Shown piece after piece: positions 16,587 to 39,950 of a DNA stretch of 64,000 bases. The notes below the pieces were generated by a model that saw only the letters and a program-made list of their open reading frames with translations, did not search any database and was not told the DNA's origin. Every line of letters begins with the position of its first letter. Positions within the stretch are counted from its first letter, which is position 1. The stretch lies in contig OZ241883.1 in the NCBI GenBank assembly GCA_965203445.1, forward strand, positions 1,248,001-1,312,000. Reading direction: 5' to 3'. The stretch is from Candidatus Oxydemutator sp. (GTDB lineage Bacteria > Pseudomonadota > Gammaproteobacteria > Poriferisulfidales > Oxydemutatoraceae). The translations under genes were made by a program, and so were the position numbers.

Positions 16587-16818
16587 CCGGGTCATGTGGC
16601 TGTCTCATAGGAGATGGCATAAGCCCTGAAAAAATTGGACGGAACGCAATAAGTGCCGTATTCTTGCAACGTCCCATCCATAAGCGAACAGATTAACACC
16701 CCCTCGGCCCGTTCGGGCCCCTGGGGGCTTTGGGTATCTGCCACCAGTATTATTCCTTAAACTATTGATATAGAAATATTTTCGACAGCAGGACAGTGTC
16801 GGATACGGCGAGGGCCGG

Positions 16819-19800
16819 GTGGTGGCATCGTGCACGCTCGTCAGTCTTATAATAGGCGGCATGTCCTTGTTCTCTCGACAACTCCACCATGCATACGTGG
16901 CAAGTGTGCTATGCGTTGTGGTTTCTGGTGTCGGGAGCACCGCTTCGGCACAAACGGGCGACACCTCTTCGACACCGACGGTCAGCACCGCCGACTACGA
17001 CGCCAACCGCAACGGCCTGATAGAAGTATCAAGCCTGGAGCAACTCAACGCAATCCGCTGGGACCTGGACGGCGACGGCGTGCCGACGAGAGCCGGCGCC
17101 GCGTCATACGCCGTGGCCTTCCCGAACACGGGCGGAGTAGTCTGCCGTACGACGACGACGGCGACGGTTTCCTGCAAAGGCTACGAGTTGGTATCGGACC
17201 TGGACTTCAACACAGGCGATCCAAGCACACGCACCGACGACCTGTATTACAACGACGGCGCCGGTTGGGAACCGATTGGCACTTGCCGCAGACGGTGGTG
17301 TTCTGCATCCGACTCGTATGCCGCGACGTTTCGTGGCAACGGCCACGTCGTTCACAGTCTGTTCATCCGGCGTCTAGGTGAGAATTTTGTCGGGTTGTTC
17401 GATTCACTGGGTAACGGAAGCAGGATAGAGGAGGTGAGTCTGCGCGACGTGAGTGTTGAGGGGCGCGAGTATGTTGGCGGCTTGGTGGGGGCTGTTCCTT
17501 GGGACGTAACCGATGTAACGATTTCCACTAGCCATGTGACCGGCATGGTCAGCGGGACAGACTATTATGTAGGCGGCCTCGTGGGGTTCAACAGTGGAGA
17601 GATAGTCGCCAGTTACGCGACGGGCACGGTCAGCGGGACGGGGGAGTTTGTAGGCGGCCTTGTGGGGCGCAACGATGGAGAGATAGTCGCCAGTTACGCG
17701 ACGGGCGCGGTCGGAGGGACGAATTTTTTTGTAGGCGGCCTCGTGGGGCAGAATTATGGAAAGATAGCCGCCAGTTATGCGACGGGTGCAGTCAGAGGAA
17801 CGAATTTTTATGTAGGCGGCCTCGTGGGGAGGAATTCTGGAAAGATAGCTACCAGTTACGCGACGGGCGCGGTCAGTGGTGGGATGGGTGATGTAGGCGG
17901 CTTCGTGGGGAGGAATTCTGGAAAGATAGCTGCCAGTTACGCGACGGGCGCGGTCAGCGCGAGCGGGACAGGCTTGTTTGTGTATGTAGGCGGCCTCGTG
18001 GGGGGCAACATGGGAGAGATAGCCGCCAGTTACGCGACGGGCGCGGTCAGCTGGAGCGGGACAGGCTTGTTTGTGGATGTAGGCGGCCTCGTGGGGTACA
18101 ACTATATACTCATGGGAGATATAGCCGTCAGTTACTGGGATACGCTGACCTCCGGCCGTGGATCGAGCGACGGCGGCACGGGCAAGAAGACCTTCGAGTT
18201 GCGTTCGCCCACGACGTACACCGGGATATACGCCGCCTGGAACGTGGACGTGGACGGCGACGGCGCAGCCGACGCCCCGTGGGATTTCGGCACCAGCACC
18301 CAATATCCGACGTTGCGGCATGGCCACGGCGCCGCGTCGGTAGCGTTGCAGCGGCCATCGCAGCCCGTGATTTCGGCGGACGGCAGTTTGCGCGGTTTGT
18401 CGGTCGGCGGTGCCACGTTGTCGCCTGATTTCCGTGCAGCGGTTACGTCGTATGACGCGGCGTCCGAATATGACGTGGTGACGGTTACGGCGCTGGTGGC
18501 GGACGCCGGGGCACGTGCCACGATCAGTCCGGAGGACGCGCAAAGCGATATTGACGGCCATCAGGTGAGACTGGCGGCGGGCACGACCGATACGGTAACG
18601 ATTACGGTAACGGTAACGGCGGCGGACGGTTCGGCGACGGAGTACGTCGTGGTGGTCGGTCATGGGGACGCGCCGTCGCCGCTTGAAGACACGGCGCCGG
18701 CGTTCGAGATCGCGGCGACGACGCTGACGTATACGGCCGGTGCATCGGTGGACCAGACGCTGCCGGCGGCGCGCGACGGCGATGGCGAGTTGCGCTATAG
18801 GCTGACCAACGCGGGCAGCACACCGACGCTGACACTCCCGTCCGGTTTGGAGTTCGACGCGGCGACACGCCGGTTGCACGGCAGGCTGACGACGGCGTCG
18901 TCGTCGGCGCGCTACACGCTGACGGCCACGGACGGCGACGGCAACCTCTCGCCCGCCGACGCCGCCCGGATGTCCATAGCAATCATAGTGTCGCCCGACC
19001 ACGACGCCAACCGCAACGGCCTGATAGAAATATCGAGCCTGGAACAACTCAACGCAATCCGCTGGGATCTGGATGGCAACGGCGTGCCGACGAGAGCCGG
19101 CGCCGTGTCATACGCCGCGGCCTTCCCGAACGCGGGCGGAGTAGTCTGCCGTACGACGACAGGGACGGTTTCCTGCAAAGGCTACGAGCTAATATCGGAC
19201 CTGGACTTCAATACCGGCGATGAGGGCACGCGCACCGACGACCTGTACTACAACAACGGCGCTGGCTGGGAACCTATCAGCGCTTGTGATCGGCCTTATT
19301 CCTATCCCTATCTTGTTTCTTGCCCGGGATACGCTGCGACGTTCAGCGGCAGCGGCCACGTGATCTACAACCTGTTCATCCAGCGTCCGCGTGAGAAATA
19401 TATCGGACTGTTCGGTGTTCTGATGGAAGCAAGCAAGATAGAGGGAGTGAAACTGCGCGACGTGAGCGTTGTGGGAGGTGGGTATGTTGGTGGCTTGGCA
19501 GGGAGTCTTGGTACTGATGGAGGCTGGTTCCAGTCGGTCCCTGGAGGAGAGATAACCGATAGTTACGCAGCGGGTAAGGTAAGCGGAGAGTATTCTGTAG
19601 GTGGCCTCGTGGGGTTCAACAATGGAGATATAGCTGCCAGCTACGCGATGGTCTCGGTCAGCGCGACGGAGGAAAAGTATATAGGTGGTTTCGTAGGGAT
19701 CAACTTGGGAGATATAGCCGCCAGTCACGCGACGGGCGCGGTCAGCGGGACGGAGTATGTAGGTGGCCTCGTGGGTCTCAACAAAGGAGAGATAGCCGCC

Positions 19801-22800
19801 AGCTACGCAACGGGTGCGGTCAGCGGGAGGGATGCAGGCGACATCGTGTGGTCCAAAACGGGAGAGTTTGTAGGTGGTCTCGTGGGGTACAACTGGCGAG
19901 GTGGAAGGATAGCCTCCAGTTACGCGACGGGCGCGGTCAACGGGACGGATAATTATGTAGGCGGCCTCGCGGGGCACAACAGTGGAGATATAGCCTCCAG
20001 TTACGCGACGGGCGCGGTCAACGGGACGGATAATTATGTAGGCGGCCTCGTGGGGATCAGCTGGGGAGGGATAATCGCCAGTTACGCGACGGGCGCGGTC
20101 GGCGGGAAGGATGAGGTAGGCGGCCTCGTGGGGTACAACTGGCGAGGTGGAAGGATAGCCTCCAGTTACGCGACGGGCGCGGTCAACGGGACAGACTATG
20201 TAGGCGGTCTCGTGGGGTTCAACAGGGGAGAGATAGCCTCCAGTTACGCGACGGGCGCGGTCAGCGGGACAGATTATGTAGGTGGCCTCGTGGGGGACAT
20301 CAGCATCGTGTGGTGGTGGTTGGGAAGAACAGTAACCGCCAGTTATTGGGATACGTTGACCTCCGGCCTTGAAAGGAGCGACGGCGGTACGGGCAAGAAG
20401 ACCTTCGAGTTGCGCTCGCCCACGACGTACACCGGGATATACGCCGCCTGGAACGTGGACGTGGACGGCGACAGGGCCGCCGACGCCCCGTGGGACTTCG
20501 GCACCGAGACCCAATATCCGATATTGCGGCATGGCCACGGCACCGCGTCGGTGGCGTTGCAGCAGTCGGCGCAGCCCGTGATTTCGGCGGACGGCAGTTT
20601 GCGTGGCTTGTCGGTCGACGGTGCCACGCTATCGCCCGATTTCCGTGCGGCGGTGACATCGTATCGCGTGGCGTCCGAGTATGACGTGGTTACGGTCACG
20701 GCGTTGGTGGCGAATGCTGGTGCGCGTGCCGAGATCAGTCCAAAGGACGCGCAAAGCGACGTTGACGGTCACCAGGTGAGACTGGCGGCGGGCACGACCA
20801 GCACGATAACGGTGACGGTTACGGCTGCGGATGGTTCGGCGACGGAGTACGTCGTGGTGGTCAGTCATGAAGGCGCGGTGCCGCCGCTCGAAGACACGGC
20901 ACCAGTGTTCGATGTCGCGGCGACGACGCTGACGTATATGGCCGGTGCATCGGTGGACGAGACGCTGCCGGCGGCGCGTGGCGGCGATGGGGAGTTGCGC
21001 TATAGGCTGACGGACGCTGGGCTGACCAACGCGGGCAGCACACCGACGCTGGTGCTGGCGCTCGCGCCCGGTTTGGAGTTCGACGCGGCATCGCGCCGGC
21101 TGTACGGTAGATTGACGACGGCGTCGTCGTCGGCGCGTTACACGCTGACGGCCACGGACGGCGACGGCAACCTCTCGCCTGCCGACGCCGCCCGGACTTC
21201 CATAGCCATCGTAGTGCTGCCTGACCACGATGCCAACCGCAACGGCCTGATAGAAGTATCGAGTCTGGAACAACTCAACGCGATCCGCTGGGATCTGGAC
21301 GGCGACGGCGTGCCGGCGAGAGCTGGTGCCACGTCGTACACCGCGGCCTTCCCGAACACGGGCGGAGTAGTCTGCCGTACGACGACGATGGTCTCCTGCA
21401 AAGGCTACGAGTTGGTATCGGATCTGGACTTCAACACGGGCGACCCGGGCACGCGCACCGACGATCTTTACTACAACAACGGTGCCGGCTGGGAACCGAT
21501 TGGCGTTTGTGATCGGTCTTCTTTTATTCGTTTTCTTGTTCCTTGTCCGGGGTACGCTGCGACATTCAGCGGCAACGGCCACGTGATCTACAACCTGTTC
21601 ATCCGGCGTCCGGGTGAGGACTATATCGGATTGTTCGGTGTTCTGATGGCAAGCAAGATAGAAGAAGTGGGGCTGCGCGACGTAAGCGTTGTGGGAAATG
21701 CTTACGTTGGTGGCTTGGCAGGGCATCTTCGTGATGCCGTCACCTGGCGTAAGTCGGGCCTTGGAGGAGAGATGATAACCGCCAGTTACGTGACGGGCGC
21801 GGTCCGCGGGACAGGCTGGCATGTAGGCGGCCTCGTGGGGGAAAATGATGGAAAGATAGCCTCCAGTTATGCAGCGGGTTCGGTCAGTGGGGCAGACGGG
21901 TATGTAGGCGGCCTCGTGGGGCTCAACGGATACGGAGGAGAGATAGCCTCCAGTTACGCGACGGGCACGGTCAGCGGGACGGAGAGTGTTGTAGGCGGCC
22001 TCGTGGGGGGCAGTTGGGGAAAGATAGTCGCCAGTTACAGTTACGCGACGGGCGCGACCAGCCGGCGCGAGACAGGCGGCTGGTATGAGCTTATAAGCAT
22101 AGGCGGCCTCGTAGGGAAAAACGGTCATACGGGAAAGATAGTTGCCAGTTATGCGACGGGCGCGGTCAGCGGGGCAGGCCGGTTTATTTATGTAGGCGGC
22201 CTCGCGGGGGTCAACAATGGAGGGATAACCGCCAGTTATTGGGATACGTTGACCTCCGGTCGCGGATCGAGCGCCGGTGGCACGGGCAAGAAGACCTCTG
22301 AACTGCACTCGCCCACGACGTACACCGGGATATACGCCGCTTGGAACGTGGACGTGGACGGCGACGGCGCAACCGACGCCCCGTGGGACTTCGGCACCAG
22401 CACCCAATATCCGACGTTGCGGTATGGCCACGGCGCTGCATCGGTGGCGTTGCAGCGGCCGTCGCAGCCTGTGATTTCGGCGGACAGCGGTTTGCGCGGT
22501 TTGTCGGTCGGCGGCACCACCCTACGGCCCGATTTCCGTGCGGCGGTTACGTTGTATCACGCGGTGTCCGAGTATGACGTGGTGACGGTTACGGCGGTAG
22601 TGGCGGACGCCGGGGCGCGTGCGGAGATCAGTCCGGAGGACGCGCAAAGCGACGTTGGCGGTCACCAGGTGAGACTGGCGACGGGCGCTGTCAGCACGGT
22701 AACGGTAACGGTAACGGCTGCGGACGGTTCGGCGACGGAGTACGTTGTGATGATCAGGCGCGTGGACGTGGCGCCGCTGTTCGACGTCGCGGCGACGACG

Positions 22801-25800
22801 CTGACGTACGTGGCCGGCGCATCGGTGGACGAGACGCTGCCGGCGGCGCGCGGCGGCGACGGCGAGTTGCGCTACGCGCTCACGGATGCTGAACTGACGG
22901 ACGCGGGCAGCACGCGGACGCTGACGCTCCCGCCCGGCCTGGAGTTCGACGCGACGGCACGCCGGCTGCACGGCAGGCTGACGACGGCGTCATCAATGGC
23001 CCGCTACACGCTGACGGCCACGGACGGCGACGGCAACCTCGCGCCCAGCGACGCCGCCCGGATGTCCATAGCAATCGTAGTGTTGCCCGACCACGACGCC
23101 AACCGCAACGGCCTGATAGAAATATCGAACCTGGAACAACTCAACGCAATCCGTTGGGATCTGGACGGCGACGGCGTGCCGACGGAAGCCGGCGCCGCGC
23201 CGTACGCCGCGGCCTTCCCGAGCACGGGCGGAGTAGTCTGCCGTACGACGACGGCGACGGTTTCTTGCAAAGGCTATGAGCTAATGTCGGACCTGGACTT
23301 CAACACGGGCGATGCGAACACGCGCACCGACGACCTGTATTACGACGACGGCGCCGGTTGGGAACCCATCGGCACTTGTGACGGAACGTATGAGTGCCAT
23401 GCGTTCGATCCCGGTTATGCCGCGACGTTCCGCGGCAATGGCCACGTCATCCGCAACCTGCTCATCCGGCGCCCGGATGAGCGCCGTGTCGGACTGTTCG
23501 GTTATCTGGCTGGTGGCAGCAGGATAGAGGAAGTCGGGCTGCGCGGCGTGCACGTCGAGGGCCGCAAATATGTCGGCGGCTTGGCGGGGCAGTCCGGCGT
23601 GCGCTACGCGACCGGGACAGCAGTAGTCTCGATAGGCTCCAGTTACGCGACGGGCGTGGTCAGCGGGACGTCGGTCGTGGGTGGCCTCGCGGGTTGGAAC
23701 CTTGGAGGAGAGATAACCGCCAGTTACGCGGCGGGCATGGTTTACGGCGGGGACATGACAGGTGGTCTCGTGGGGGTTCACGAACGGAAGCTGACCGCCA
23801 GTTCCGCAACGGCCACGGTCGGCGGGAGAGATTGGGCAGGCGGCCTTGTGGGGAGCAACGAGGGAGAGATAACCGCGAGCTACGCGACGGGCGCGGTTGG
23901 CGGAAGGGATAACGTAGGCGGTCTCGTGGGGTACAACTGGGGACGGATAGCCGCCGGTTACGCGACGGGTGCAGTCGGCGGAAGGGATAATGTAGGCGGC
24001 TTTGTGGGGGGCAACCCCTCCTCTGGGGAAATAGTCGCCAGTTACGCGACGGGCGTGGCCGGCGGGCGGGATGAGGTAGGCGGCCTCGTGGGGCACAACT
24101 GGGGACGGGTAGCCGCCAGTTACGCGACGGGCAAGGTCAGCGGGGAGAGATTTGCAGGCGGCTTCGTGGGGCACAACCACACCTGGGGAGCAATAACCGC
24201 CGGTTACTGGGATACGTTGGCCTCCGGCCTTGCATGGAGCGACGCCGGCACGGGCAAGAAGACCTTCGAGTTGCGCTCGCCCACGACGTACACCGGGATA
24301 TACGCCGCCTGGAACGTGGACGTGGACAGCGACGGCGCTGCTGACGCCCCGTGGGATTTCGGTACCAGCACCCAATATCCGACGTTGCGGTATGGCCACG
24401 GCGCCGAGTCGGTGGCGTTGCAGCGGCCGTCGCAGCCCGTGATTTCGGCGGACAGCGGTTTGCGCGGCTTGTCGGTCGGCGGCACCACCCTACGGCCCGA
24501 TTTCCGTGCGGCGATTACGTTGTATCACGCGGCGTCCGAGTATGACGTGGTTACGGTTACGGTGCTGGTGGCGGACGCCGGTGCGCGTGCGCAGATCAAT
24601 CCGGAGGATGCGCAAAGCGACGTTGACGGTCACCAGGTGAGACTGGCGACAGGCACGACCAGCACGGTGACGATAACGGTAACGGCGGCAGACGGTTCGG
24701 CGACGGAGTACGTCGTGATGATCAGGCACGAGGACGAGGCGCCAGTGTTCGACGTCGCGGCGACGACGCTGACGTACGTGGCCGGCGCGTCGGTGGACGA
24801 GACGCTGCCGGCGGCGCGCGGCGGCGACGGGGAGTTGCGCTACACGCTCACGGACGCTGGGCTGACGGACGCGGGCAGCACGCGGACGCTGACGCTCCCG
24901 CCCGGCCTGGAGTTCGACGCGACGGCACGCCGGCTGCACGGCAGGCTGACGACGGCGTCGTCAACGTCGCGCTACACGCTGACGGCAACGGACGGCGACA
25001 GGAACCTGTCGCCGAGCGACGCCGCCCGGACGTCCATAGCAATCATAGTGTTGCCTGACCACGATGCCAACCGCAACGGCCTGATAGAAATATCGAGCCT
25101 GAAACAACTCAACGCGATCCGATGGGACCTCGACGGCGACGGCGTGCCGACGGCAACCGGCGCCACGCCATACGCCGCGGCCTTCCCAAACGCGGGCGGA
25201 GTAGTCTGCCGTGCGACGACGACGAGGACGGTGTCCTGTAAGGGCTACGAGTTGGTATCGGATCTGGACTTCAACACGGGCGATCCAAGTACGCGCACCG
25301 ACGACCTGTATTACAACGCCGACGCCGGCTGGGAACCTGTCGGTGCTTGTGATCGGCCTTATATTGATCCTTTTCTTCCCGATCATGTTCCTTGCCCAGG
25401 ATACGCTGCGACGTTCAGCGGCAATGGCCACGTGATCTACAACCTGTTCATCCGGCGCCCGGGCGAGGACTATGTCGGACTGTTCGGTGTTCTGGGTAGC
25501 GGAAGCAGGATAGAGGGAGTGGGGCTGCGCGACGTGACAGTCAGCAGCGGAAAGGGAGCGGTAGGCAGCCTCGTGGGGGTCAACTATGAGGGAGAGATAG
25601 TCGCCAGTTACGCCACGGGCGCGGTCAGCGGGACGGGGTATGACGTGGGCGGCCTCGTGGGATCGAACGGTTCGACAATAACCGCCAGTTACGCGACGGG
25701 CGCGGTCAGCGGGCCGGATGTTGCGGGCGGCCTCGTGGGGTATAACTGGGAGGGAGAGATAGTCGCCAGTTACGCGACGGGTGCGGTCGGCGGAGAGAAC

Positions 25801-28800
25801 ATTGCAGGTGGTCTCGTGGGGTTCAACTGGGGAGATACGGCTGTCCGTTCCAGTTATTGGGACACGTCTGCCTCCGGCCTCGAGTGGAGCGACGGCGGCA
25901 CGGGTAGGAAGACCTTCGAGTTGCGCTCGCCCACGACGTACACCGGAATTTACGCCGCCTGGAACGTGGACGTGGACGGCGACGACGTCGCCGACGCCCC
26001 ATGGGACTTCGGCACCAGCACCCAATATCCGGTATTGCGGTATGGTCGCGGCGCCGCATCGGTGGCGTTGCAGCAGTCGTCGCAGCCCGTGATTGCGGAG
26101 GACGGCAGTTTGCGAGGCTTGTCGGTCAGCGGCACCACGCTGTCGCCCGATTTCCGTGCGACGGTTACGTCGTATCGCACGGTGTCCAAGTATGAAGACA
26201 TGGTGACGGTCACGGCGCTGGTGGCGGACGCCGGTGCGCGTACCGAGATCAGTCCGGAGGACGCGCAAAGCGACGTGGAAGGTCACCAGGTGAGACTGGC
26301 GATAGCCGCCGTCAGCACGATAACGGTTACGGTAACGGCTGCGGACGGTTCGCCGACGGAGTACGTCGTGATGATCAGGCACGAAAGTGCCGCGCCGCTG
26401 TTCGACGCCGCGGCGACGACGCTGACGTACGTGGCCGGTACAACGGTGGACGAGACGCTGCCGGCGGCGCGCGGAGGCGACGGAGAGTTGCGCTACACGT
26501 TGATGGATGCGTTGGCTGACAGGCTGATCGGCGCGCTGACCAACGTGGGCATCACGCAAACACTGGTGCCGACGCTGACGCTGCCGCCTGGCCTGGAGTT
26601 CGACGCGGCATCGCGCCGGCTGCACGGCAGTCCGACGACGGCGTCGTCCATGGCGCGCTACACGCTGACGGCCACGGACGGCGACGACGACCTCTCGCCC
26701 GCCGACGCCGCCCGGACGTCCATAGCCATCGTAGTGTCGCCCAACCACGACGACAACCGCAACGGCCTGATAGAAATATCGAGTCTGGAACAACTCAACG
26801 CGATTCGTTGGGATCAGGATGGCGACGGCGTGCCGGCGGAAGCCGGTGCCGCGTCATACGCCGCGGCCTTCCCGAGCGCGGGCGGAGTAGTCTGCCGCAC
26901 GACGACGGGGGTAGTTTCCTGCAAAGGCTACGAGTTGGTATCGGATCTGGACTTCAACACGGGCGATCCGAGCACGCGCACCGACGACTTGTACTACAAC
27001 AACGGCGCCGGCTGGGAGCCCATCGTCGGTTATGCCGCGACGTTCCGTGGCAACGGCCACGTCATTGACAACCTGTTCATCCGGCGTCCGGGCGAGGATC
27101 GGATTGGCCTGTTCGGTTTTCTGGCCGATGGCGGCAGGATAGAGAGAGTGGGGTTGCGCGGCGTGAGCGTCGTGGGCAAAGATAGCGTTGGCAGCCTGGT
27201 GGGGGTGCTGACCGGCGTGCGCTACGCGAGCAGAACAGCAATAGCCTCGATAGTCTCCGGTTATGCGACGGGTACGGTCGGCGGGGAGGATAATGTAGGC
27301 GGCCTCGTGGGGAGCAACTGGAGAGGAGGAGAGATAACCGCCAGTTACGCGACAGCCAAGGTCAACGGGACAGGCCAGTATGTAGGCGGCCTTGTGGGGG
27401 GCAACTGGAAGAGAGGAAGGATAGCCGCCAGTTACGCGACGGGCGCGGTCAGCGGGACAAAGTATGTAGGCGGTCTCGTGGGGGTCAGCTACAACGGGGG
27501 AGAGATAGCCGCCAGTTACGCCACGGGTGCGGTCAGCGGGACAAGTCGTGTAGGCGGCCTCGTGGGAGGCAACGGGAGATATGCAGAGATAGTCGCCAGT
27601 TACGCGACGGGCGCGGTCAGCGGGAGGGATCATGTAGGCGGCCTCGCGGGGATCAGCGCGGGAGAGATAGCTGCCAGTTACGCCACGGGTGCGGTCAGCG
27701 GGACGGAGGATGTAGGCGGCCTTGTAGGAGGGAACGGCAACGTGCGGTGGTTGAGCAAAATAGAAACCGCCAGCTACTGGGATACGCTGACCTCCGGCCT
27801 GGAAAGGAGCGACGGCGGCACGGGCAAGAAGACCTTCGAGTTGCGTTCGCCGACGACCTACACCGGGATATACACCGCCTGGAACGTGGACGTGGACGGC
27901 GACGATGTTGCCGACGCCCCATGGGACTTCGGCACCAGCACCCAATATCCGGTATTGCGGTATGGCCACGGCGGCGCGTCGGTTTCGTCGCAGCGCCCGG
28001 CGCAGCCCATGATTTCGGCGGACGGCAGTTTGCGTGGCTTGTCGGTCAGTGGTGCCATGCTTTCTCCAGATTTCCGTGCGGCGGTTACGTCGTATGACGC
28101 AGCGGCCGGCCACGATATGGCTACAGTCACGGCAGTGGTGGCGGACGCCGGTGCGCGTGCCGAGATCAGTCCGGAGGATGCACAAAGCGATATTGACGGC
28201 CACCAGGTGAGACTGGCGACGGGCGCTGCCAGCACGGTTACAGTTACGGTAATGGCGGCGGACGGTTCGGCGACGGAGTACGTCGTGATGATCAGTTATG
28301 AAGATACGGCGCCGGTGTTCGACGTAGCGGCGACGACGCTGACGTACGTGGCCGGCGCATCGGTGGACGAGACGCTGCCGGCGGCACGTGGCGGCAACGG
28401 CGAGTTGCGCTACACGTTGATGGATGGGTTGACTGGCAGGTTGACCAGTGCGCTGACCAACGTGGATGTCACGCAGACACTGGCGCGGACGCTGACACTC
28501 CCGCCCGGCCTGGAGTTCGACGCGACGTCACACCGGCTGCACGGCAGGCTGACGACGGCGTCATCAATGGCCCGCTACACGCTGACGGCCACGGACAGCG
28601 ATGGCAACCTCGCGCCCAGCGACGCCGCCCGGACATCCATAGCCATCGTAGTGTCGCCCGACCACGACGGCAACCGCAACGGCCTGATAGAAGTATCAAG
28701 CCTGGAACAACTCAACGCGATCCGCTGGGATCTCGACGGCAACGGCGTGCCGACGGCAACCGGCGCCGCGTCGTACGCCGCGGCCTTCCCGAGCACGGAT

Positions 28801-31800
28801 GGAGTAGTCTGCCGCACGGCGACGGAAGTGGTTCCCTGCAAAGGCTACGAGTTGGTATCGGATCTGGACTTCAACACGGGCGATCCAAGCACGCGCACCG
28901 ACGACCTGTATTACAACAACGGCGCCGGTTGGGAACCCATCGGCGGTTATGCTGCGACGTTCCGCGGCAACGGCCACGCCATCCGCAACCTGTTCATCCG
29001 GCGTCCGAGCGAGGATCGTATCGGGCTGTTCGGTTCTCTGGCCGGCGACAGCAGGATAGAGAGAGTGGGGCTGCGCGGCGCGAGCGTCGTGGGGAATGAT
29101 GACGTTGGCGCTCTGGCGGGGCAGGCCGGTGCGCAAGACGCGACCGGGACGACGATAATCGCCAGTCACGCGACGGGCGCGGTTCGCGGGGAAGAGAGGA
29201 TAGGCGGCCTTGTGGGGCGGAACTTGGGCAGGATAGCCGCCGGATACGCGATGGCCACGGTCGGCGGAGCATGGGACGTGGGCGGTCTCGCGGGTTGGAA
29301 CTCCGGCGAGATAGTCGCCGGTTACGCGACGGGCACGGCCAGCGGGCGATTGAATACCGGCGGCCTCGTGGGCGCGAACTCGGAGGGAGGAACGATAGCC
29401 GCCAGTTACGCCACGGGCGCGGTCGGCGGACAGTCGAATACGGGCGGCCTCGTGGGCGCGGACTCGAAAGGAGGGCCGATAACCGCCAGCTACTGGGATA
29501 CGATGACCTCCGGTCGTGCATGGAGCGCCGGCGGCGCGGGCAGGAAGACCTTCGAGTTGCGCTCGCCCACGACCTACACCGGCATCTATGCCGCCTGGAA
29601 CGTGGACGTGGACGGCGACGGTGCAGCCGACGCCCCGTGGGACTTCGGCACCAGCACCCAATATCCGGTATTGCGGTATGGCCGCGCTGCCGCGTCGGTG
29701 TCGCGGCAGCGCCCGGCGCAGCCCATGATTTCGGCGGACAGCAGTTTGCGCGGCTTGTCGGTCAGCGGTGCCACGCTTTCTCCCGATTTCCGTGCGGCGG
29801 TGACGTCGTATCGTGCGGTGGCCGACCGCGACGTGGTTACGGTTGCGGCGCTGGTGGCGGACGCCGGTGCGCGTGCCGAGATCAGTCCGAGGGACGCGCA
29901 AAGCGACGTTGACGGCCACCAGGTAAGGCTGGCGACGGACACCACCGACACGGTTACGGTAACGGTAACGGCGGCGGACGGTTCGGCGACGGAATACGTC
30001 GTGATGATCAGGCGCATGGACGTGGCGCCGGTATTCGACGTAGCCGCGACGACGCTGACGTACGTGGCCGGCGCATCGGTGGACGAGACGCTGCCGGCGG
30101 CGCGCGACGGCAACGGCGAGTTGCGCTACACGTTGATGGATGGGTTGACTGGCAGGTTGACCGGTGCGCTGACCAATGTGGGCGTCACGCAGACACTGGC
30201 GCGGACGCTGACACTCCCGCCCGGCCTGGAGTTCAACGCGGCGACACGCCGGCTGCACGGCAGCCTGACAACGGCGTCATCAACGTTGCGCTATACGCTG
30301 ACCGCTGTGGACGGCGACGGCAACCTCGCGCCCAACGACGCCGCCCGGACATCCATAGCAATCATAGTGCTGCCCGACCACGACGGCAACCGCAACGCCC
30401 TGATAGAAATATCGAGCCTGGAGCAACTCAACGCAATCCGGTGGGATCTGGATGGCGACGGCGTGCCGACGGAAGCCGGCGCCGCGTCATACGCCGCGGC
30501 CTTCCCGAGTACGGATGGAGTCGTCTGTCGCACAACGACGAGTGTGGTTCCCTGCAAAGGCTACGAGCTAATATCGGACCTGGACTTCAACACGGGCGAT
30601 CCAAGCACGCGCACCGACGACCTGTACTACAACGACGGCGCCGGCTGGGAACCGATTGGCACTTGTAGCTGGTGGTGTTTTGCATCCGATGGGTATGTCA
30701 CGACGTTCCGTGGCAACAGCCACGTCATTGACAACCTGTTCATCCGGCGTCCAGATGAGGATCGTATTGGACTGTTCGGTGTTCTGGGTAGCGGAAGCAG
30801 GATAGAGGGAGTGGGGCTGCGCGATGCGCGCGTCGAGGGAGATGATTATGTTGGTGGCTTGGCAGGGCTTGCTGTTGGTAGAACACCGATAATCTCCACT
30901 AACTACGTGACGGGCGCGGTCAGTGGGATGGATGATGTAGGTGGCCTCGTGGGGTACAACAATGGAGAGATAACCGCCAGTTACGCGACGGGCGCGGTTC
31001 GCGGGACGAATGCAGTAGGCGGCCTCGTGGGGTTCCACAGGGGAGAGATATTCGCCAGTTACGCGACGGGCGCGGTTCGCGGGAGAGATTCTGTAGGCGG
31101 CCTCGCGGGTCGCAACGAGAGTGTACAGATAGCCGCCAGTTACGCGACGGGCGCGGTTCGCGGGAGATATAATGTAGGCGGCCTCGTGGGGAAGAACGAT
31201 GTAGAGATATTCGCCAGTTACGCGACGGGTGTGGTTAGTGGAACGGGTGATGTAGGCGGCCTCGTGGGGGATAACTGGCGGGGAGAGATAGCCGCCAGTT
31301 ACGCGACGGGCGCGGTTAGTGGAACGGATGATGTAGGCGGCCTCGTGGGGTACAACAATGGAGAGATAACCGCCAGTTACGCGACGGGCGCGGTTCGCGG
31401 GAGATATAATATAGGCGGCTTCGTGGGACGGGGGAGAGGAACAGTAACCGCCAGTTACTGGGATACGCTGACCTCCGGACGAGACAGCAGTGCCGACGGC
31501 ACGGGCAAGAAGACCTTCGAGTTGCGTTCGCCGACGACGTACACCGGGATTTATGCCGCCTGGAACGTGGACGTGGACGGCGACGAGGCCGCCGATGCCC
31601 CGTGGGGCTTCGGCACCGAAACCGAATATCCGATATTGCGGTATGGCCACGGCACCGCGTCGGTGGCGTTGCAGCGCTCGGCGCAGCCGGTGATTTCGGC
31701 GGACAGCAGTTTGCGTGGCTTGTCGGTCGTCGGAACCACCCTGTCGCCCGATTTCCGTGCGGCGGTTACGTCGTACGACGCGGCGTCCGAGTATGACGTG

Positions 31801-34800
31801 GTTACGGTCACGGCGTTGGTGGCGGATGCCGGTGCGCGTGCCGAGATCAGTCCGGATGACGCGCAAAGCGACGTTGACGGCCACCAGGTGAGGCTGGCGG
31901 CGAGTGCCACCGGCACGGTTACGATTACGGTAACGGTAACGGCTGCGGATGGTTCGGCGACGGAGTACGTCTTGGTGGTTGGTCATGAGGACGTGCCGCC
32001 GCCGCTCGAAGACACGGCGCCGACGTTCGAGATCGCGGCGACGACGCTGACGTATACGGCCGGCGCATCGGTGGACGAGACGCTGCCGGCGGCGCGCGGC
32101 GGCGACGGCGAGTTGCGCTACACGTTGACTGATGGGCTGACGGACGCCGGGCCGACCAACGCGGGCAGTACGCCGACACTGACGCTGACGCTGCCGCCCG
32201 GCCTGGAGTTCGACGCGGCGACACGCCGGCTGCACGGCAGGCTGACGACGGCGTCATCAACGTCGCGCTACACGCTGACGGCTGTGGACGGCGACGGCAA
32301 CCTCGCGCCCAGCGACGCCGCCCGGACATCCATAGCCATCGTAGTGCTGCCCGACCACGATGCCAACCGCAACAGCCTGATAGAAATATCGAGCCTGGAG
32401 CAACTCAACGCAATCCGTTGGGATCTGGACGGCAATGGCGTGCCGACGGAAGCCGGCGCCGCGTCGTACGCCGCGGCCTTCCCGAGCACGGATGGAGTCG
32501 TCTGCCGCACGACGACGGGAGTAGTCTCCTGCAAAGGTTACGAGTTGGTATCGGATCTGGACTTCAACACGGGCGATCCAAGCACGCGCACCGACGACCT
32601 TTACTACAACAACGGCGCCGGCTGGGAACCTGTTGGCCAATGCCGCAGAACATTGGGGTGGTATTCGTGTTCTGCATCCGATTCGTATGCCGCAACGTTC
32701 CGTGGCAACGGCCACGTCATTCACAACTTGTTCATCCGGCGTCCGGGTGAGAATTATGTTGGGCTATTCGGTTATCTCAGAGGAGGCAGGATAGAGGGAG
32801 TAGGGCTGCATGACGTGCGCGTCGAAGGACATAGTGATGTCGGTGGTTTGGCAGGGAGGGCTGATGCTTGGTTAAATTTTGGGATTTGGACTAGTATAAC
32901 GATAATCTCCAATAGCCACGTGACGGGCGTGGTCAGCGGGACAGGCCGGAGTGTAGGCGGCCTCGTGGGATTCAATCGGGGAGAGATAACTGCCAGTTAT
33001 GCGACGGGTGTGGTCAGCGGGACAGGCCGGTATGATGCAGGCGGCCTCGTGGGGGACAACAGGGGAGAGATAACTGCCAGTTATGCGACGGGCGTGGTTA
33101 GTGGAACGGATAACGCAGGCGGCCTCGTGGGGCTCAATCGGGGAGAGATAACTGCCAGTTATGCGACGGGCGTGGTTAGTGGAACGGATAACGCAGGCGG
33201 CCTCGTGGGGATCAACGATGGAGAGATAGCTGCCAGTTACGCGACGGGTGCGGTCCGCGGGGTAACTGATGTAGGCGGCCTCGTGGGGTTCAATCAGGGA
33301 GAAATAGTCGCTAGTTATGCGACGGGCGCGGTCAGCAGGACAGTTTGGTATGGGTATGTAGGTGGCCTCGTGGGGTACAACAACTCGAATGGAAAGATAG
33401 CCGCCAGTTACGCGACGGGCGCGGTCCGCGGGAGATGGCGCGAGGGCGGCCTCATAGGGAACAACGGCAGTGCTGTGCGGTCGTGGAGAGGAACAGTAAC
33501 CGCCAGCTACTGGGACAAGCTGACATCCGGACATGCATGGAGCGACGGCGGCACGGGCAAGAAGACCTTCGAGTTGCGTGCGCCCACGACGTACACCGGG
33601 ATTTATGCCGCCTGGAACGTGGACGTGGACGGCGATGAGGCCGCTGATGCCCCGTGGGGCTTTGGCACCGAAACCGAATATCCGATATTGCGGTATGGCC
33701 ACGGCACCGCGTCGGTGGCGTTGCAGCAGTCGTTGCAGCCCGTGATTTCGGCGGACAGCAGTTTGCGTGGCTTGTCGGTCGTCGGAACCACCCTGTCGCC
33801 CGATTTCCGTGCGGCGGTTACGTCGTACGACGCGGCGTCCGAGTATGACGTAGTTACGGTCACGGTGTTGGTGGCGGACGCCGGTGCTCGTGCCGAGATC
33901 AGTCCGGATGACGCGCAAAGCGAGGTTGACGGCCACCAGGTGAGGCTGGCGGCGGGCGCTACCGGCACGGTTACGATTACGGTAACGGTAACGGCTGCGG
34001 ATGGTTCGGCGACGGAGTACGTCGTGGTGGTCGGTCATGAGGACGTGCCACCGCCGCTCGAAGACACGGCGCCGACGTTCGAGATCGCGGCGACGACGCT
34101 GACGTATACGGCCGGCGCATCGGTGGACGAGACGCTGCCGGCGGCGCGTGGCGGCGACGGCGAGTTGCGCTACACGTTGACTGATGGGCTGACGGACGCC
34201 GGGCCGACCAACGCGGGCAGCACGCCGACACTGACGCTGACGCTCCCGCCCGGCCTGGAGTTCGATGCGGCGACGCGTCGGCTGCACGGCAGTCTGACGA
34301 CGGCGTCGTCAACGTCGCGCTATACGCTGACGGCCACGGACGGCGACGGCAACCTCGCGCCCAGCGACGCCGCCCGGTTATCTGTAGCCATCGTAGTGCT
34401 GTCTATGCCCGATCACGACGGCAACCGCAACAGCCTGATAGAAATATCGAGCCTGGAACAACTCAACGCGATCCGTTGGGATCTGGATGGCAACGGAGTA
34501 CCGACGGAAGCCGGCGCCGCATCGTACGCCGCGGCCTTCCCGAGCACGGATGGAGTCGTCTGTCGCGCGACGACGGCGACGGTTCCCTGTAAAGGCTACG
34601 AGCTAATATCGGACCTGGACTTCAACACGGGCGATCCAAGCACGCGCACCGACGACCTGTACTACAACAACGGCGCCGGCTGGGAACCGATTGGCACTTG
34701 TAGCGGATGGTTGTGGTGGCCGCGTTGTTCTAAATCTGATGGGTATGCCGCGATGTTTAGCGGCAACGGCCACGTGATCTATAACCTGCTCATCCAGCGT

Positions 34801-37800
34801 CCGGGTGAGGACAATATCGGGTTGTTCGGTGTTCTGGGGATCGGAGGCAAGATAGAGGAAGTGGGGCTGCGCGACGTGAGTGTTGTGGGAGATGGTATGG
34901 TTGGTGGCTTGACAGGGAGGATTCATAATAGCCTGATCTGGGGTAGTTGGTCGGACCCTGGAGGAGAGATAACCGCCAGTTACGCGACGGGCGTGGTTAG
35001 TGGAACGGAATTTGTAGGCGGCCTCGTGGGAGGCAACAATGGAAGAATAGCCGCCAGTTCCGCGACGGGCGCGATCAGCGGAGAATTCAGTGTAGGCGGC
35101 CTCGCGGGGATCAACGATGGAGAGATAGCTGCCAGTTACGCAACGGGCGCGGTCCGCGGGACACGGGGCGTGGGTGGCCTCGTGGGGAGCAACATCGGAG
35201 AGATAGCCGCCAGTTCCGCGACGGGTGTGGTCAGTGGGACGGATGATGTGGGCGGCCTCATGGGTTACAGCCAGGGAGATATAGTTGCCAGTTACGCGAC
35301 GGGCGCGGTCCGCGGGACACGGGGCGTGGGTGGCCTCGTGGGAAGTAAATGGCAAGGAGATATAGCTGCCAGTTACGCGACGGGCGCGGTCCGCGGGGCG
35401 GAGGAGGTGGGCGGTCTCGTGGGGATCAACCATAGTGGAGAGATAGTCGTTAGTTATGCGACAGGCGCGGTCCGCGGGACATGGGGCGTGGGCGGCCTCG
35501 TGGGGATTCACGCAAAGGGCCGAGGAGATGGAGGGATAGCTGCCAGTTACGCGACGGGTGCGGTCAGTGGGGCACGGGGCGTGGGCGGCCTCGTGGGGGG
35601 CAGCACAGGAGAGATAGCTGCCAGTTACGCGACGGGTGCGGTCAGTGGGACAGATGATGTAGCGGTAGGGGGCCTCGTAGGGGGCGTTGGCATCGCGCGA
35701 CGGTGGTCGAGAGGAGCAGGAGTCGTGTGGTGGACAGGAACAGTAACCGCCGGCTACTGGGATACGTTGACCTCCGGACGTGGATCGAGTGCCGGCGGCA
35801 CGGGCAAGAAGACCTTCGAGTTGCGTTCGCCGACAACGTACACCGGGATTTATGCCGCCTGGAACGTGGACGTGGACGGCGACGAGGCCGCCGATGCCCC
35901 GTGGGGCTTCGGCACCGAGACCGAATATCCGATATTGCGGCATGGCCACGGCACTGCGTCGGTGGCGTTGCAGCAGTCGTTGCAGCCCGTGATTTCGGCG
36001 GACAGCAGTTTGCGCGGTTTGTCGGTCGGCGGTGCCACGTTGTCGCCTGATTTCCGTGCGGCGGTGACGTCGTATGACGCGGTGGCCGACCGCGACGTGG
36101 TTACGGTTGCGGCGTTGGTGGCAGGTGCCGGTGCGCGTGCCGAGATCAGGCCGAGGGACGCGCGAAGAAACGTTGACGGCCACCAGGTGAGGCTGGCGGC
36201 GGGCGCTACCGGCACGGTTACGATTACGGTAACGGTTACGGCGGCGGACGGTTCGGCGACGGAGTACGTCGTGGCGGTCAGTCGTGAGGGCACGGCGCCG
36301 GTGTTCGACGTGGCGGCGACGACGCTGGCGTATGTGGCCGGCGATCTGGTGGACGAGACGCTGCCGGCGGCGCGCGGCGGCGACGGGGAGTTGCGCTACA
36401 CGTTGACTGATGGGCTCACGGACGCCGGGCCGACCAACGCGGGCAGCACGTCGACGCTGACGCTCCCGCTCGGCCTGGAGTTCGACGCGGCATCGCGCCG
36501 GCTGCACGGCAAGCTGACGACGGCGTCGTCAACGTCGCGCTATACGCTGACGGCCACGGACGGCGACGGGAACGTCTCGCCGAGCGACGCCGCCCGGACG
36601 TCCATAGAAATTGTGGTCACGCCCGACCACGACCGCGACGATGACGGCCTGATTTCGATCACGACGCTGGCACAGTTGAACGCGGTACGTTGGGATCTGA
36701 ACGGCGACGGCGTGTCCGCCGATCCCGGATACGCCGCGGCCTTCCCCCACGCGGCCGCGGGCATGGGCTGCCCTGCATCCGGTTGCACGGGCTACGAACT
36801 GGACAACGACCTGGACTTCGACACCGACGGAAACGGCACCATCAACGCGAACGATGGTGCATTGAGTTGGGGCGCGGGCGCCGACGCCGGCAAAGGTTGG
36901 GCGCCCATCGGTGGTTCGGGTTCGTTTGACGGCAGTTTTCGTGCCACGTTCATGGGCAACGGCCACGTGGTCAAAAACCTGTTCATAAATCGGTCGTCGG
37001 ACAAGTGGGTCGGCTTGTTCGGGCGCGTCTTCGCCGGCAGGATCGAAGGGTTGGGGCTGACCGGCGCGGTCGTCATCGGTGATTTCTACGTCGGCGGACT
37101 GGTCGGGTATAACCACGGGGAGATCATCGCGAGCTACGCCAACGCCACCGTCAGCGGCCGCGACCAAGCCGGTGGATTGGTGGGCAGAAACAAGAAGAAG
37201 ATCATCGCCAGTTACGCCAACGCGACCGTCAGCGGCGGGCGCGCCGTCGGCGGTCTGGTGGGCAGAAACAAAGGAGAGATCATCGCCAGCTACGCCAGCG
37301 CGGCCGTTCGCGGCGAGCGCGCCGTCGGCGGCCTGGTGGGCAGAAACAAGAGGAGAATCGCGGCCAGTTACGCCAGGGGCACCGTGCACGGGCGCAAATA
37401 CGTCAGCGGTTTAGTGGGCCGAGGGGGATCCGTGTTCAGCTACTGGGATACCAACGTTTCCAATCTGCCCCCCTATATCGGGGGCGCCGGCAGGACGACC
37501 GGCGAGCTGCAAACGCCGACGAGTTATACCGGCATCTACGCCCACTGGAACATGGACCTGGATAACAGCACGGTGACCGGTGTCGGCGGCAGGGACGACC
37601 CGTGGGACTTCGGCACGAGCAGCCAATATCCGGTGCTGCAATACCGCGGCCTCAGCACCGCCACCCAGTTCGCCGCGCAGCCGTTCGGCGACGCCGACCT
37701 GCGCTCCCTGGTGCTTTCGGTCGGCGTGCTGGAACCGGGCTTCGACGCCGCTATCACCAGTTACGCGGCGGTCGTCGGTTATGCGGCGTTGGTCGGCACG

Positions 37801-39945: not shown

Positions 39946-39950
39946 AGCGT

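What the first reader, a model, noticed from the sequence alone, without database searches (positions are those of the whole stretch)
16993..36624. Antibody-like repertoire in one giant protein: constant framework with hypervariable Cys-flanked, aromatic-rich loops
Seen: modules 1-10 share near-identical framework, but the loop after GAGWEP differs: CRRRWC, CDRPYSYPYLVSC, CDRSSFIRFLVPC, CDGTYEC, CDRPYIDPFLPDHVPC, absent, absent, CSWWC, CRRTLGWYSC, CSGWLWWPRC (at about 17281, 19282, 21504, 23374, 25345, 27025, 28942, 30661, 32638, 34696). The two Cys are gained or lost together. Two more variable sites flank the GLUG array (e.g. SLGTDGGWFQSVP and RADAWLNFGIWTS; DISIVWWWLGR and GIARRWSRGAGVVWW). 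Known: W/Y/R enrichment and length-variable loops typify binding sites in antibody CDR3 and lamprey VLRs. Inference: a string of ten differently specific binding heads on Ig/cadherin spacers, under diversifying selection.
Basis: partly seen in the sequence, partly recalled or inferred. Interest (0 to 1): 0.9.

Follow-up and report, generated by a model that had tools for sequence, protein, structure and literature searches.

The report
Many-headed giant surface protein, variable loops
A 7,350-residue secreted protein of a small-genome, sponge-type bacterium carries ten copies of one beta-helix "head", each decorated with different loops, and it looks like an inherited set of adhesin heads rather than an antibody-like, actively diversifying system.

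Summary
Window 16819-38871 (+) is one 7,350-aa ORF made of ten 562-742-aa modules, a divergent eleventh module and a C-terminal domain. Each module has an N-cap, a GLUG-motif helix of 26-residue rungs (4-10 rungs per head), a cadherin-like domain and a He_PIG Ig domain. The loop after GWEPIG differs as reported: 8 of 10 modules have a Cys-flanked loop and 2 have none. Two further variable sites lie in one turn of the first and last rungs.

- The ten heads form one clade, so the array arose by duplication in place, and exchange between modules has since made it mosaic.
- pN/pS is 0.21-0.39 in the framework and about 0.8 in alignable sister loops. This shows relaxed constraint, not demonstrated diversifying selection.
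- Only Trp (and Cys) is enriched in the loops. Tyr and Arg are not.
- The genome has no reverse transcriptase, so there is no DGR.
- Contigs from other samples carry the same loops at about 90-96% identity, so the set is inherited.
- Other sites also vary in length: the rung number, a linker and a He_PIG loop.

The family is large, with 43,344 representative proteins. This genome holds 184 such heads, and its main GLUG-bearing giant ORFs take up about 17.5% of its 2.38 Mb.

The parts
16819..38871 (+). Giant ORF of 7,350 aa (P0001). It opens at GTG 16819; the likely start is ATG 16861.
16861..16950 (+). Signal-peptide-like N-terminus: a basic residue, a hydrophobic stretch, then ...STASA before Q. 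Read by eye; no predictor was run.
   Evidence: The other giant ORFs of the genome have similar N-termini.
16990..18993 (+). Module 1 (668 aa): N-cap, 8 GLUG rungs, C-cap, cadherin-like domain (nt 18421-18657), He_PIG (nt 18715-18948)
18994..21219 (+). Module 2 (742 aa), 10 rungs
21220..23085 (+). Module 3 (622 aa), about 7 rungs
23086..25053 (+). Module 4 (656 aa), 8 rungs
25054..26739 (+). Module 5 (562 aa), 4 rungs
26740..28656 (+). Module 6 (639 aa), 7 rungs, no V1 loop
28657..30372 (+). Module 7 (572 aa), 5 rungs. This is the 'bare' head: no V1 loop, short V2 and V3, no Trp in them.
30373..32349 (+). Module 8 (659 aa), 8 rungs
32350..34407 (+). Module 9 (686 aa), about 8 rungs
34408..36621 (+). 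Module 10 (738 aa), 10 rungs. This is the most decorated head, with 8 Trp in V1-V3.
36622..37986 (+). Divergent module 11: head (36622-37644, 51% identical to M9, no Cys loop) plus a cadherin-like domain (about 37705-37986). It has no He_PIG.
38131..38868 (+). C-terminal domain of about 250 aa with two Cys pairs and dockerin-like D-rich motifs. BLASTP finds it, at 30-47% identity, at or close to the C-terminus of 23 other stop-to-stop ORFs of at least 1,000 aa in this genome. No Pfam or NCBIfam family matches.
17278..17316 (+). V1 of M1 (GTCRRRWCSASDS)
   Evidence: An X1 contig covers it with 0 differences.
19279..19329 (+). V1 of M2 (SACDRPYSYPYLVSCPG)
21502..21552 (+). V1 of M3 (GVCDRSSFIRFLVPCPG)
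23371..23415 (+). V1 of M4 (GTCDGTYECHAFDPG)
25342..25401 (+). V1 of M5 (GACDRPYIDPFLPDHVPCPG)
27025..27030 (+). V1 position of M6: loop absent (VG)
28942..28947 (+). V1 position of M7: loop absent (GG)
30658..30693 (+). V1 of M8 (GTCSWWCFASDG)
   Evidence: X5 record 32 covers it with 14 differences over about 156 nt.
32635..32685 (+). V1 of M9 (GQCRRTLGWYSCSASDS)
34693..34743 (+). V1 of M10 (GTCSGWLWWPRCSKSDG)
   Evidence: X3 record 15 covers V1 and V2 with 20 differences in 548 nt and no gaps.
17491..17520 (+). V2 of M1: the turn after VGGLVG in the first rung
19504..19551 (+). V2 of M2 (SLGTDGGWFQSVPGGE)
21724..21774 (+). V2 of M3
23590..23631 (+). V2 of M4
25579..25596 (+). V2 of M5 (short, 6 aa)
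27205..27249 (+). V2 of M6
29122..29154 (+). V2 of M7
30868..30888 (+). V2 of M8
32857..32901 (+). V2 of M9 (RADAWLNFGIWTSIT)
34918..34968 (+). V2 of M10 (RIHNSLIWGSWSDPGGE)
18097..18120 (+). V3 of M1: the same turn, in the last rung before SYWDT
20296..20331 (+). V3 of M2 (DISIVWWWLGRT)
22210..22224 (+). V3 of M3 (short)
24172..24192 (+). V3 of M4
25822..25842 (+). V3 of M5
27730..27762 (+). V3 of M6
29458..29478 (+). V3 of M7
31429..31443 (+). V3 of M8 (short)
33460..33495 (+). V3 of M9
35683..35742 (+). V3 of M10 (GVGIARRWSRGAGVVWWTGT)

Best explanation
The gene encodes a Sec-exported giant cell-surface protein of a diderm, sponge-type gammaproteobacterium. It is a chain of ten (plus one divergent) adhesin-like heads held apart by cadherin-like and Ig-like (He_PIG) spacers.

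Each head has three parts: a Ca-loop-like N-cap with an invariant Cys pair, a helix of 26-residue GLUG rungs, and a conserved C-cap. The helix is homologous to the N-terminal beta-helix of streptococcal M26 IgA1 proteases and to Bacteroides 3N6Z.

The array arose by tandem duplication in place. Its framework has been kept similar by purifying selection and by segmental exchange between modules.

A few tolerant turns have drifted apart, mainly by in-frame insertions and deletions. These are the loop before the first rung (V1, stapled by a probable disulfide) and the turn after VGGLVG in the first and last rungs (V2, V3). The result is a fixed, inherited set of differently decorated heads, running from bare (M7) to Trp-rich (M10).

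Inferred, not shown: the Trp-rich stapled loops tune what each head binds (host matrix, glycans or other cells), so the protein works as a multivalent, multi-specific adhesin. Nothing generates new variants within a cell's lifetime.
For: Architecture
- Pfam Glug scores 89.4 bits against a cut-off of 20.5, and Cadherin-like and He_PIG also match.
- A profile of 44 heads hits PDB 3n6z (E 9e-17, covering W..loop..FxGxxH and the rungs) and IgA1 proteases 6xja, 7jgj, 7uvk and 7uvl (E 1e-16 to 9e-14).
- The rungs are 26 residues long, with 4-10 per head.
- In IgA1 protease the NTD is a beta-helix and binds the IgA1 Fab (PMC7695701, passages read).

Export
- The N-terminus looks like a signal peptide.
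- All 42 mature Cys lie in 21 local pairs.
- C52 and C61 are invariant in 44 of 44 aligned heads.
- LPS-core genes lie next door, which indicates a diderm.

Origin
- The ten heads form one clade (SH-aLRT 100), with M11 as sister (90).
- Trees of four regions are incongruent with 72-99 support. For example, M10 groups with M2/M3/M5 just after the loop but with M8/M9 elsewhere.

Selection
- Framework dN/dS is 0.21-0.39. Sister loops give a pooled pN/pS of 0.80.
- Sister loops differ by 3-5-codon indels while keeping both Cys.

Loops look more than random
- Trp makes up 6.8% of the variable sites. The framework has 1.2%, and random codons of the same base composition would give 3.0% (binomial p=2e-4).
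- At matched framework identity the loops are more diverged than in the other giant ORFs.

Inherited
- There is no RVT_1 in the genome.
- Contigs from other studies carry the loops.
- Close homologues have related stapled loops.
Against: - No binding, expression or localisation data exist. No structure model could be made, so it is unknown whether V1-V3 share a face. V2 and V3 sit in the same turn but 4-10 rungs apart, which argues against one compact paratope.
- pN/pS of about 0.8 fits loss of constraint as well as it fits adaptive tuning.
- Length variation also occurs in spacer parts: the linker before He_PIG and a He_PIG loop, with column entropies of 0.87-0.97.
- The bare head M7 shows that the loops are dispensable for the scaffold.
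- Part of the Trp excess is shared by descent among M1, M8, M9 and M10, so the counts are not independent.
- In the nearest foreign homologues (P0006, P0010), 3 of 6 heads carry nearly the same loop, so diversification is not a rule of the subfamily.
- The signal peptide was judged by eye only.
Confidence: 0.55

Rival explanations
1. Neutral decoration. The heads all do the same job (spacer, coat or generic adhesion). V1-V3 are simply the turns of a beta-helix that tolerate insertions, so they drift by indels and near-neutral substitutions with no difference in specificity.
For: - pN/pS of about 0.8 in the loops, against 0.2-0.4 in the framework, is the signature of relaxed constraint.
- The same V1 site varies in length (5-54 aa) in 184 heads of this genome and (5-43 aa) in 907 heads of 239 foreign homologues.
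- 3n6z also has an insertion at the V2 turn.
- Spacer loops and the rung number vary too.
- M6 and M7 lack V1 altogether.
Against: - Trp occurs at 2.3 times the random-codon expectation in solvent-side turns.
- The Cys pairing is strict: 0 of 184 loops have a single Cys.
- Both Cys are retained across indels.
- A related CxWWC loop is kept in a foreign homologue whose N-cap is 91-93% identical.
- The loops are more diverged than in the other giant ORFs at the same framework identity.
Confidence: 0.3
2. Enzyme array. The GLUG beta-helices are catalytic, for example polysaccharide lyase- or hydrolase-like as in many right-handed beta-helices, and the loops shape substrate grooves.
For: It is general knowledge that many parallel beta-helix proteins are carbohydrate-active enzymes. 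Sponge symbionts are reported to be enriched in enzymes that target sponge glycans (PMC8163846, abstract and passages read).
Against: - No catalytic Pfam or NCBIfam family was found in the parts scanned, namely module 1, modules 10-11 and the C-terminus.
- There is no HExxH motif anywhere in the protein.
- The solved relatives use this helix as a binding and gating domain.
- The invariant columns are mostly structural residues: G, L, W, P and C.
Confidence: 0.1
3. Active diversification. The loops are rewritten during the organism's life by a DGR, by cassette recombination between modules, or by slippage, giving a truly antibody-like changing repertoire.
For: - Incongruent region trees show past exchange between modules.
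- Some loops contain short codon repeats, such as CCTTAT/TCCTAT/CCCTAT in M2 and runs of TGG.
Against: - No reverse transcriptase is found in a 100%-complete single-contig genome, while the control genomes do give hits.
- Modules differ by dS of 0.12-0.5 in the N-cap and tail, so the exchange is old.
- Contigs of the best-holding run match the loops with 0 differences. Contigs from two other studies carry the loops at about 90-96% identity, some without gaps.
Confidence: 0.03
4. Assembly artefact. The array, or its loop differences, come from collapsed or chimeric repeats.
For: No single contig of the runs laid spans the array. The region is repetitive.
Against: - The longest exact stretch shared by any two modules is 110 nt, so the modules are easy to tell apart.
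- The frame stays open for 22 kb.
- Eight independent-assembler contigs of run X1 match unique parts, including V1 and V2 of several modules, with 0 differences. That run may be the source sample.
- The genome is one contig, 100% complete, with 0.19% contamination.
Confidence: 0.02

Closest known systems
GLUG-motif beta-helix of M26 IgA1 metalloproteases (S. pneumoniae IgA1P/ZmpA, PDB 6XJA/7JGJ; G. haemolysans and related 7UVK/7UVL) and Bacteroides 'putative IgA1 protease' 3N6Z
   Same: Homologous rungs: the profile E-value is 1e-16 to 9e-17 and Pfam Glug matches. 3N6Z also aligns through the W..loop..FxGxxH start and has an insertion at the V2 turn. In IgA1P the helix is a ligand-contacting, independently folding domain.
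   Different: There is no protease part: no HExxH and no M26 catalytic family in the parts scanned. Here the helix is repeated 11 times in one chain, each copy with its own N-cap and C-cap and Ig-type spacers. The host is a diderm marine bacterium, not a Gram-positive pathogen.
Giant repetitive adhesins of Gram-negative bacteria (LapA, SiiE, Marinomonas MpIBP; recalled from general knowledge, not from a call)
   Same: Very long, Ca-dependent-looking, Ig or cadherin-type extender domains, and surface display.
   Different: Those proteins have one ligand-binding region at the tip, RTX repeats and a C-terminal type-1 secretion signal, and few Cys. This one has no GGxGxD repeat and an N-terminal signal-like peptide. 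It has 21 Cys pairs and candidate binding heads all along the chain. Its unclassified C-terminal domain is shared with 23 other large ORFs of the genome.
Beta-helix autotransporter adhesins with polymorphic surface loops (e.g. pertactin; recalled)
   Same: A conserved beta-helix with variable loops emerging from its turns.
   Different: No autotransporter barrel family was found in the C-terminal 408 aa. The variation here is between paralogous heads within one protein, not between strains.
Diversity-generating retroelement targets and lamprey VLR / antibody CDRs
   Same: A constant scaffold with a few length-variable, aromatic-rich loops.
   Different: There is no reverse transcriptase, no somatic mechanism, and the loops are stable across samples. 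This is an analogy of form only.
Cadherin- and fibronectin-domain attachment proteins reported as enriched in sponge symbionts (Robbins et al. 2021, PMC8163846; abstract and cadherin passages read)
   Same: The ecological setting and the spacer domains. Homologous heads occur in MAGs whose titles name typical sponge-associated lineages of several phyla.
   Different: That paper counts cadherin and fn3 genes. It does not mention GLUG heads in the passages I read. Full-text searches for 'GLUG motif' found 2 papers, neither on sponges.

Membership tests
GLUG motif proteins (Pfam PF07581) | Match to the Glug model above its gathering score | tested here: met
   89.4 bits for module 1 and 83.9 bits for modules 10-11, against a cut-off of 20.5
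GLUG motif proteins (Pfam PF07581) | Homology to solved GLUG beta-helices | tested here: met
   A profile of 44 heads against the PDB gives 3n6z at E 9e-17 and 6xja/6xjb/7jgj at 1.2e-16
GLUG motif proteins (Pfam PF07581) | Right-handed parallel beta-helix fold of the rungs in this protein | not testable with these tools
The fold is inferred from the 26-residue periodicity and from homology.
M26 IgA1-specific metalloendopeptidases | Zinc-binding HExxH catalytic domain | tested here: not met
   No HExxH in the 7,350 aa. No peptidase family in the parts scanned with Pfam.
Cadherin-like beta sandwich (PF12733) and He_PIG Ig (PF05345) spacers | Matches above the gathering scores | tested here: met
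   29.0 and 48.5 bits against a cut-off of 24.2; 32.9 and 24.3 bits against a cut-off of 24
DGR-diversified variable proteins | A reverse transcriptase (with template repeat) in the genome | tested here: not met
   PF00078 gives 0 matches in the 100%-complete genome, while the controls hit in 3 of 14 genomes
RTX / type-1-secreted giant adhesins | RTX nonapeptide repeats near the C-terminus | tested here: not met
   No GGxGxD motif. No HemolysinCabind hit in the last 408 aa at E<=5.
Type V autotransporters | C-terminal beta-barrel translocator domain | tested here: not met
   Only Cadherin-like (and a sub-threshold DUF5018) were found in the last 408 aa
Adaptive-immune-type repertoires (antibody, VLR) | Somatic generation of variants from germline segments | tested here: not met
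   The loops are fixed in the genome, matched exactly by contigs of the best-holding run and at 90-96% identity in other studies. No diversifying enzyme was found.
Sites under diversifying selection | dN/dS above 1 at the variable sites | tested here: inconclusive
   Pooled pN/pS is 0.80 and 1 of 14 comparisons exceeds 1. Most loop pairs cannot be aligned, and no codon-model software was at hand.

The most novel reading that the evidence does not exclude
A reduced (2.38 Mb) sponge-type sulfur-oxidiser relative devotes about a sixth of its genome to an inherited library of 184 beta-helix heads. Its three congeners in the set searched gave no match. In this one protein the heads have gained disulfide-stapled, Trp-rich loops that act like CDRs on a non-immunoglobulin scaffold. 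On this reading each head recognises a different host, glycan, microbial or phage target. It would be a germline-encoded, many-specificity recognition array, and a new natural binding scaffold shared across sponge-symbiont phyla.
Probability: 0.15. Interest if true: 0.8.

Novelty: new variant of a known kind. Interest (0 to 1): 0.5.

Why it matters
If the loops do set specificity, this would be a compact, disulfide-stapled beta-helix scaffold with natural loop diversity. That would bear on how symbionts hold on to, or are recognised by, sponge hosts, and it would interest protein engineers.

Apart from function, the genome-level picture is notable. About 17.5% of a 2.38-Mb genome lies in giant GLUG-head ORFs. 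The head gave no match in the 3 congeners searched (1.6-1.8 Mb). Homologous heads occur in MAGs of several other phyla whose titles point to sponge-associated lineages.

I found nothing in print on this multi-head arrangement with the full-text searches I ran.

Tried and rejected
- **Strain comparison.** One locus (L024) lies on a contig of nearly the same length as this genome, so I checked whether it was a near strain. It is a different organism, with only short 64-91% DNA matches, so no orthologue-by-orthologue comparison was possible.
- **Sequencing runs.** No RNA holder was listed. That says nothing about expression.
- **Read laying.**
  - The many 'skips' and 'goes back' joints were laid at 88% likeness in a repeat and in metagenomes, so I do not read them as rearrangements.
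  - No contig spans the array.
  - The tables were cut, so I could not tell whether the differences in X3-X5 concentrate in the loops.
- **V2 and V3 in the other giant ORFs.** My patterns found them in only 25 and 27 of 184 heads. Those heads are built differently, mostly with 3-4 rungs. I dropped that comparison.
- **Sliding-window dN/dS across the GLUG array.** This is unreliable because rungs of different modules are not one-to-one. Windows near 1 there (for example columns 310-330 at 1.13 and 530-550 at 1.06) are not taken as evidence.
- **First V2 pattern.** It overran into later rungs in M2, M6 and M9. One search replaces it.
- **NCBIfam.** No family for module 1, modules 10-11 or the C-terminus.
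- **Literature.** 'GLUG' with 'sponge' gave no relevant paper. 'GLUG motif' gave 2 papers, one on a haloarchaeon and one on a cockroach-gut methanogen. 'PF07581' gave 0. The giant-protein and symbiont search gave nothing on this family.
- **DGR.** Considered and rejected because there is no RT.
- **Misassembly.** Considered and rejected.

Full report
WHAT IS THERE. Window 16819-38871 (+) is a single open frame of 7,350 codons. A likely ATG start lies at 16861, followed by a signal-peptide-like stretch (judged by eye). The protein consists of ten modules of 562-742 aa, starting at nt 16990, 18994, 21220, 23086, 25054, 26740, 28657, 30373, 32350 and 34408. A divergent eleventh module follows (36622-37986, head at 36622-37644), and then a C-terminal domain of about 250 aa.

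Pfam finds three families in the parts scanned: the GLUG motif (89.4 bits against a cut-off of 20.5), a cadherin-like beta sandwich, and a He_PIG Ig domain. NCBIfam finds nothing.

Splitting the heads at the VGGLVG anchor shows 26-residue rungs of the form VGGLVGxNxGxIxASYATGxVxGxxx, with 4 to 10 rungs per head. TRF sees the same 78-81-nt period. A profile of 44 heads matches PDB 3n6z (E 9e-17) and streptococcal IgA1 proteases (E about 1e-16). In IgA1 protease this region is a beta-helix, and the N-terminal domain that holds it binds the Fab of IgA1 (PMC7695701, passages read).

THE OBSERVATION. Every loop string and coordinate in the finding checks out. Eight of the ten modules have a V1 loop bracketed by two Cys, and M6 and M7 have none. 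V2 and V3 occupy the same turn (after VGGLVG, before IxxSYATG or SYWDT), in the first and the last rung respectively.

All 42 Cys beyond residue 32 occur in 21 local pairs spaced 3-15 residues apart: one N-cap pair per module, the eight V1 pairs, and two pairs in the C-terminal domain. The N-cap pair is invariant in 44 of 44 aligned heads. Among the 184 heads of the whole genome, 171 V1 loops have no Cys, 13 have two and none has one. Among 907 heads of 239 foreign homologues the counts are 882, 9 and 16 for zero, one and two Cys. This is good indirect evidence for disulfide-stapled loops in an exported protein. 'Gained or lost together' is explained most simply by whole-loop deletions.

HOW VARIABLE, AND WHY.
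- The ten heads are one clade (SH-aLRT 100), with M11 as sister. The array therefore grew in place.
- The modules are not recent copies. NG86 dS is 0.12-0.5 in the N-cap and the tail, and reaches about 1 just after the loop. Framework dN/dS is 0.21, 0.38 and 0.39 in the three regions measured.
- Trees of four regions disagree with 72-99% support, so segments have been exchanged between modules.
- The loops fall into families: M2/M3/M5, M1/M8/M9/M10, M4 alone, and no loop in M6/M7. Sister loops differ by indels of 3-5 codons that keep both Cys.
- In 14 alignable sister-loop comparisons the pooled pS is 0.33, pN is 0.26 and the ratio is 0.80. Only one comparison exceeds 1, on 1 synonymous and 6 non-synonymous changes. 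This shows relaxed constraint, not demonstrated positive selection. Aligning by protein similarity biases pN downward, and most loop pairs cannot be aligned at all, so the test is inconclusive rather than negative.

Two results argue that the loops are more than noise. First, Trp is 6.8% of V1-V3. That compares with 1.2% elsewhere (OR 5.9, p=3e-10) and with 3.0% expected from random codons of the same base composition (p=2e-4). Tyr and Arg are not enriched. Second, at matched framework identity (0.80-0.90) the loop cores are about 0.23-0.24 identical here, against about 0.65 in the other giant ORFs (the pairs are not independent).

Several results argue against a CDR-like picture. The rung number, the turns of internal rungs, the linker before He_PIG and a He_PIG loop also vary in length. 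V2 and V3 are 4-10 rungs apart. M7 carries essentially no decoration.

NO ACTIVE DIVERSIFIER, NO ARTEFACT.
- The genome is one contig, 100% complete, and has no RVT_1 match, although the control genomes do.
- The longest exact stretch shared by two modules is 110 nt.
- Eight contigs of the best-holding run match unique parts with 0 differences, including V1 and V2 of M1, M2, M4 and M9. That run may be the source sample.
- Contigs of runs from two other studies cover V1+V2 of M10 (20 differences in 548 nt, no gaps), V1 of M8 and V2 of M1 and M9, at roughly 90-96% identity. The loops are therefore inherited.
- A foreign fragment, P0125, has an N-cap 93% and 91% identical to M9 and M8 and a CDWWC loop like M8's CSWWC.
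- In P0006 and P0010 (62-64% identity), 3 of 6 heads share nearly one loop. The diversity seen here is thus particular to this protein.

CONTEXT.
- This genome. The window lies at 1,248,001-1,312,000 of a 2,378,814-bp genome. A pattern scan finds 184 heads in 22 giant ORFs of up to 17,496 aa, with 135 distinct V1 sequences of 5-54 aa. ORFs with more than five GLUG-like motifs total 138,844 aa, or 17.5% of the genome by stop-to-stop length.
- Shared C-terminal domain. BLASTP finds the C-terminal domain of this protein at or near the end of 23 other large ORFs. Some of them have no GLUG heads.
- Relatives. The head is found in 0 of 3 congeners (1.6-1.8 Mb; 98, 85 and 98% complete). It is found in 6 of 12 genomes of the family and in 0 of 8 genomes of three other families of the order.
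- Wider distribution. In one-genome-per-species contigs, 49 loci encode relatives at 29-59% identity. Their titles name Dehalococcoidia, Binatia, Vicinamibacterales, Terriglobia, Acidimicrobiales, Ca. Poriferisocius, Ca. Spongiisocius, Latescibacterota, Thermodesulfobacteriota and others. In a library of 1.84 billion representatives, 43,344 proteins match at E<=1e-3 and 9,247 at E<=1e-30.
- Names given by sources. Of the 120 best longer homologues listed, 2 carry a name: 'hypothetical protein' and 'GLUG motif-containing protein'.
- Organism. The neighbouring Kdo transferase is 69% identical to one in a record titled Ca. Porisulfidus. LPS-core genes flank the ORF, so the organism is a diderm.

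VERDICT. The protein is a new, striking member of a large but unstudied class of multi-head GLUG surface proteins. Its loop-diversified, Cys-stapled heads are an unusual variant: stapled V1 loops make up 1.8% of the foreign heads sampled.

The antibody analogy describes the shape of the variation, not its mechanism. Diversifying selection and differential binding remain untested. The main untested step, which I could not run, is a structure of a bare head and a decorated head, followed by binding screens.

Noticed in passing
whole genome G000 (window = C1:1248001-1312000): ORFs with more than five GLUG-like motifs total 138,844 aa, or 17.5% of a 2.38-Mb genome. The head gave no match in 3 of 3 congeners (1.6-1.8 Mb), so these genes may account for much of the size difference.
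   Followed up: partly
window 38131-38868, and the ends of 23 other large ORFs of G000: A shared C-terminal domain of about 250 aa, 30-47% identical between ORFs. It has dockerin-like D-rich motifs and Cys pairs and matches no Pfam or NCBIfam family. It is a likely common sorting or anchoring module for the whole set of giant proteins, including some without GLUG heads.
   Followed up: partly
G000 giant ORFs of 16130, 10540, 4326 and 3521 aa: Four heads carry very long V1 loops (45 or 54 aa) with a Cys pair. They occur in two near-identical pairs across different proteins, so whole heads are shared or copied between genes.
   Followed up: no
G000 ORFs of 11262 and 2941 aa (C-termini): These two GLUG-bearing giants end instead in a Gly-rich stretch, a hydrophobic helix and an Arg cluster. 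This resembles a PEP-CTERM-type sorting tail, but that is read by eye only.
   Followed up: no
window 252-4178 (+): A 1,308-aa RHS-repeat protein (Pfam RHS_repeat, E 5e-41) lies at the left edge of the window.
   Followed up: no
window 4317-5462 (+) and 12825-14684 (+): A D12-class N6-adenine DNA methyltransferase and an AAA_21/AAA_15 ATPase lie upstream. They may be defence-related genes.
   Followed up: no
window 38893-39963 (-) and 40740-41981 (-): A heptosyltransferase (GT9) and a Kdo transferase lie directly downstream, on the opposite strand. The organism therefore makes LPS, although many of the nearest head homologues are in Chloroflexota MAGs.
   Followed up: partly
window 14884-15615 and 15842-16696 (+): Two ORFs (243 and 284 aa) just upstream of the giant gene match no Pfam family at E<=1e-5.
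   Followed up: no
alignment columns about 740-760 and 790-820 of the module alignment (e.g. window about 18660-18720 and 18790-18850 in M1): The linker before He_PIG (with or without ...PPLEDTAP) and a He_PIG loop (0-13 extra residues) are also length-variable between modules.
   Followed up: partly
loci L009-L057: On the tree of heads, labels cluster by phylum but not cleanly. For example, a Latescibacterota head pairs with a Dehalococcoidia head at 98 support. This hints at transfer between co-resident lineages, or at old paralogy.
   Followed up: no
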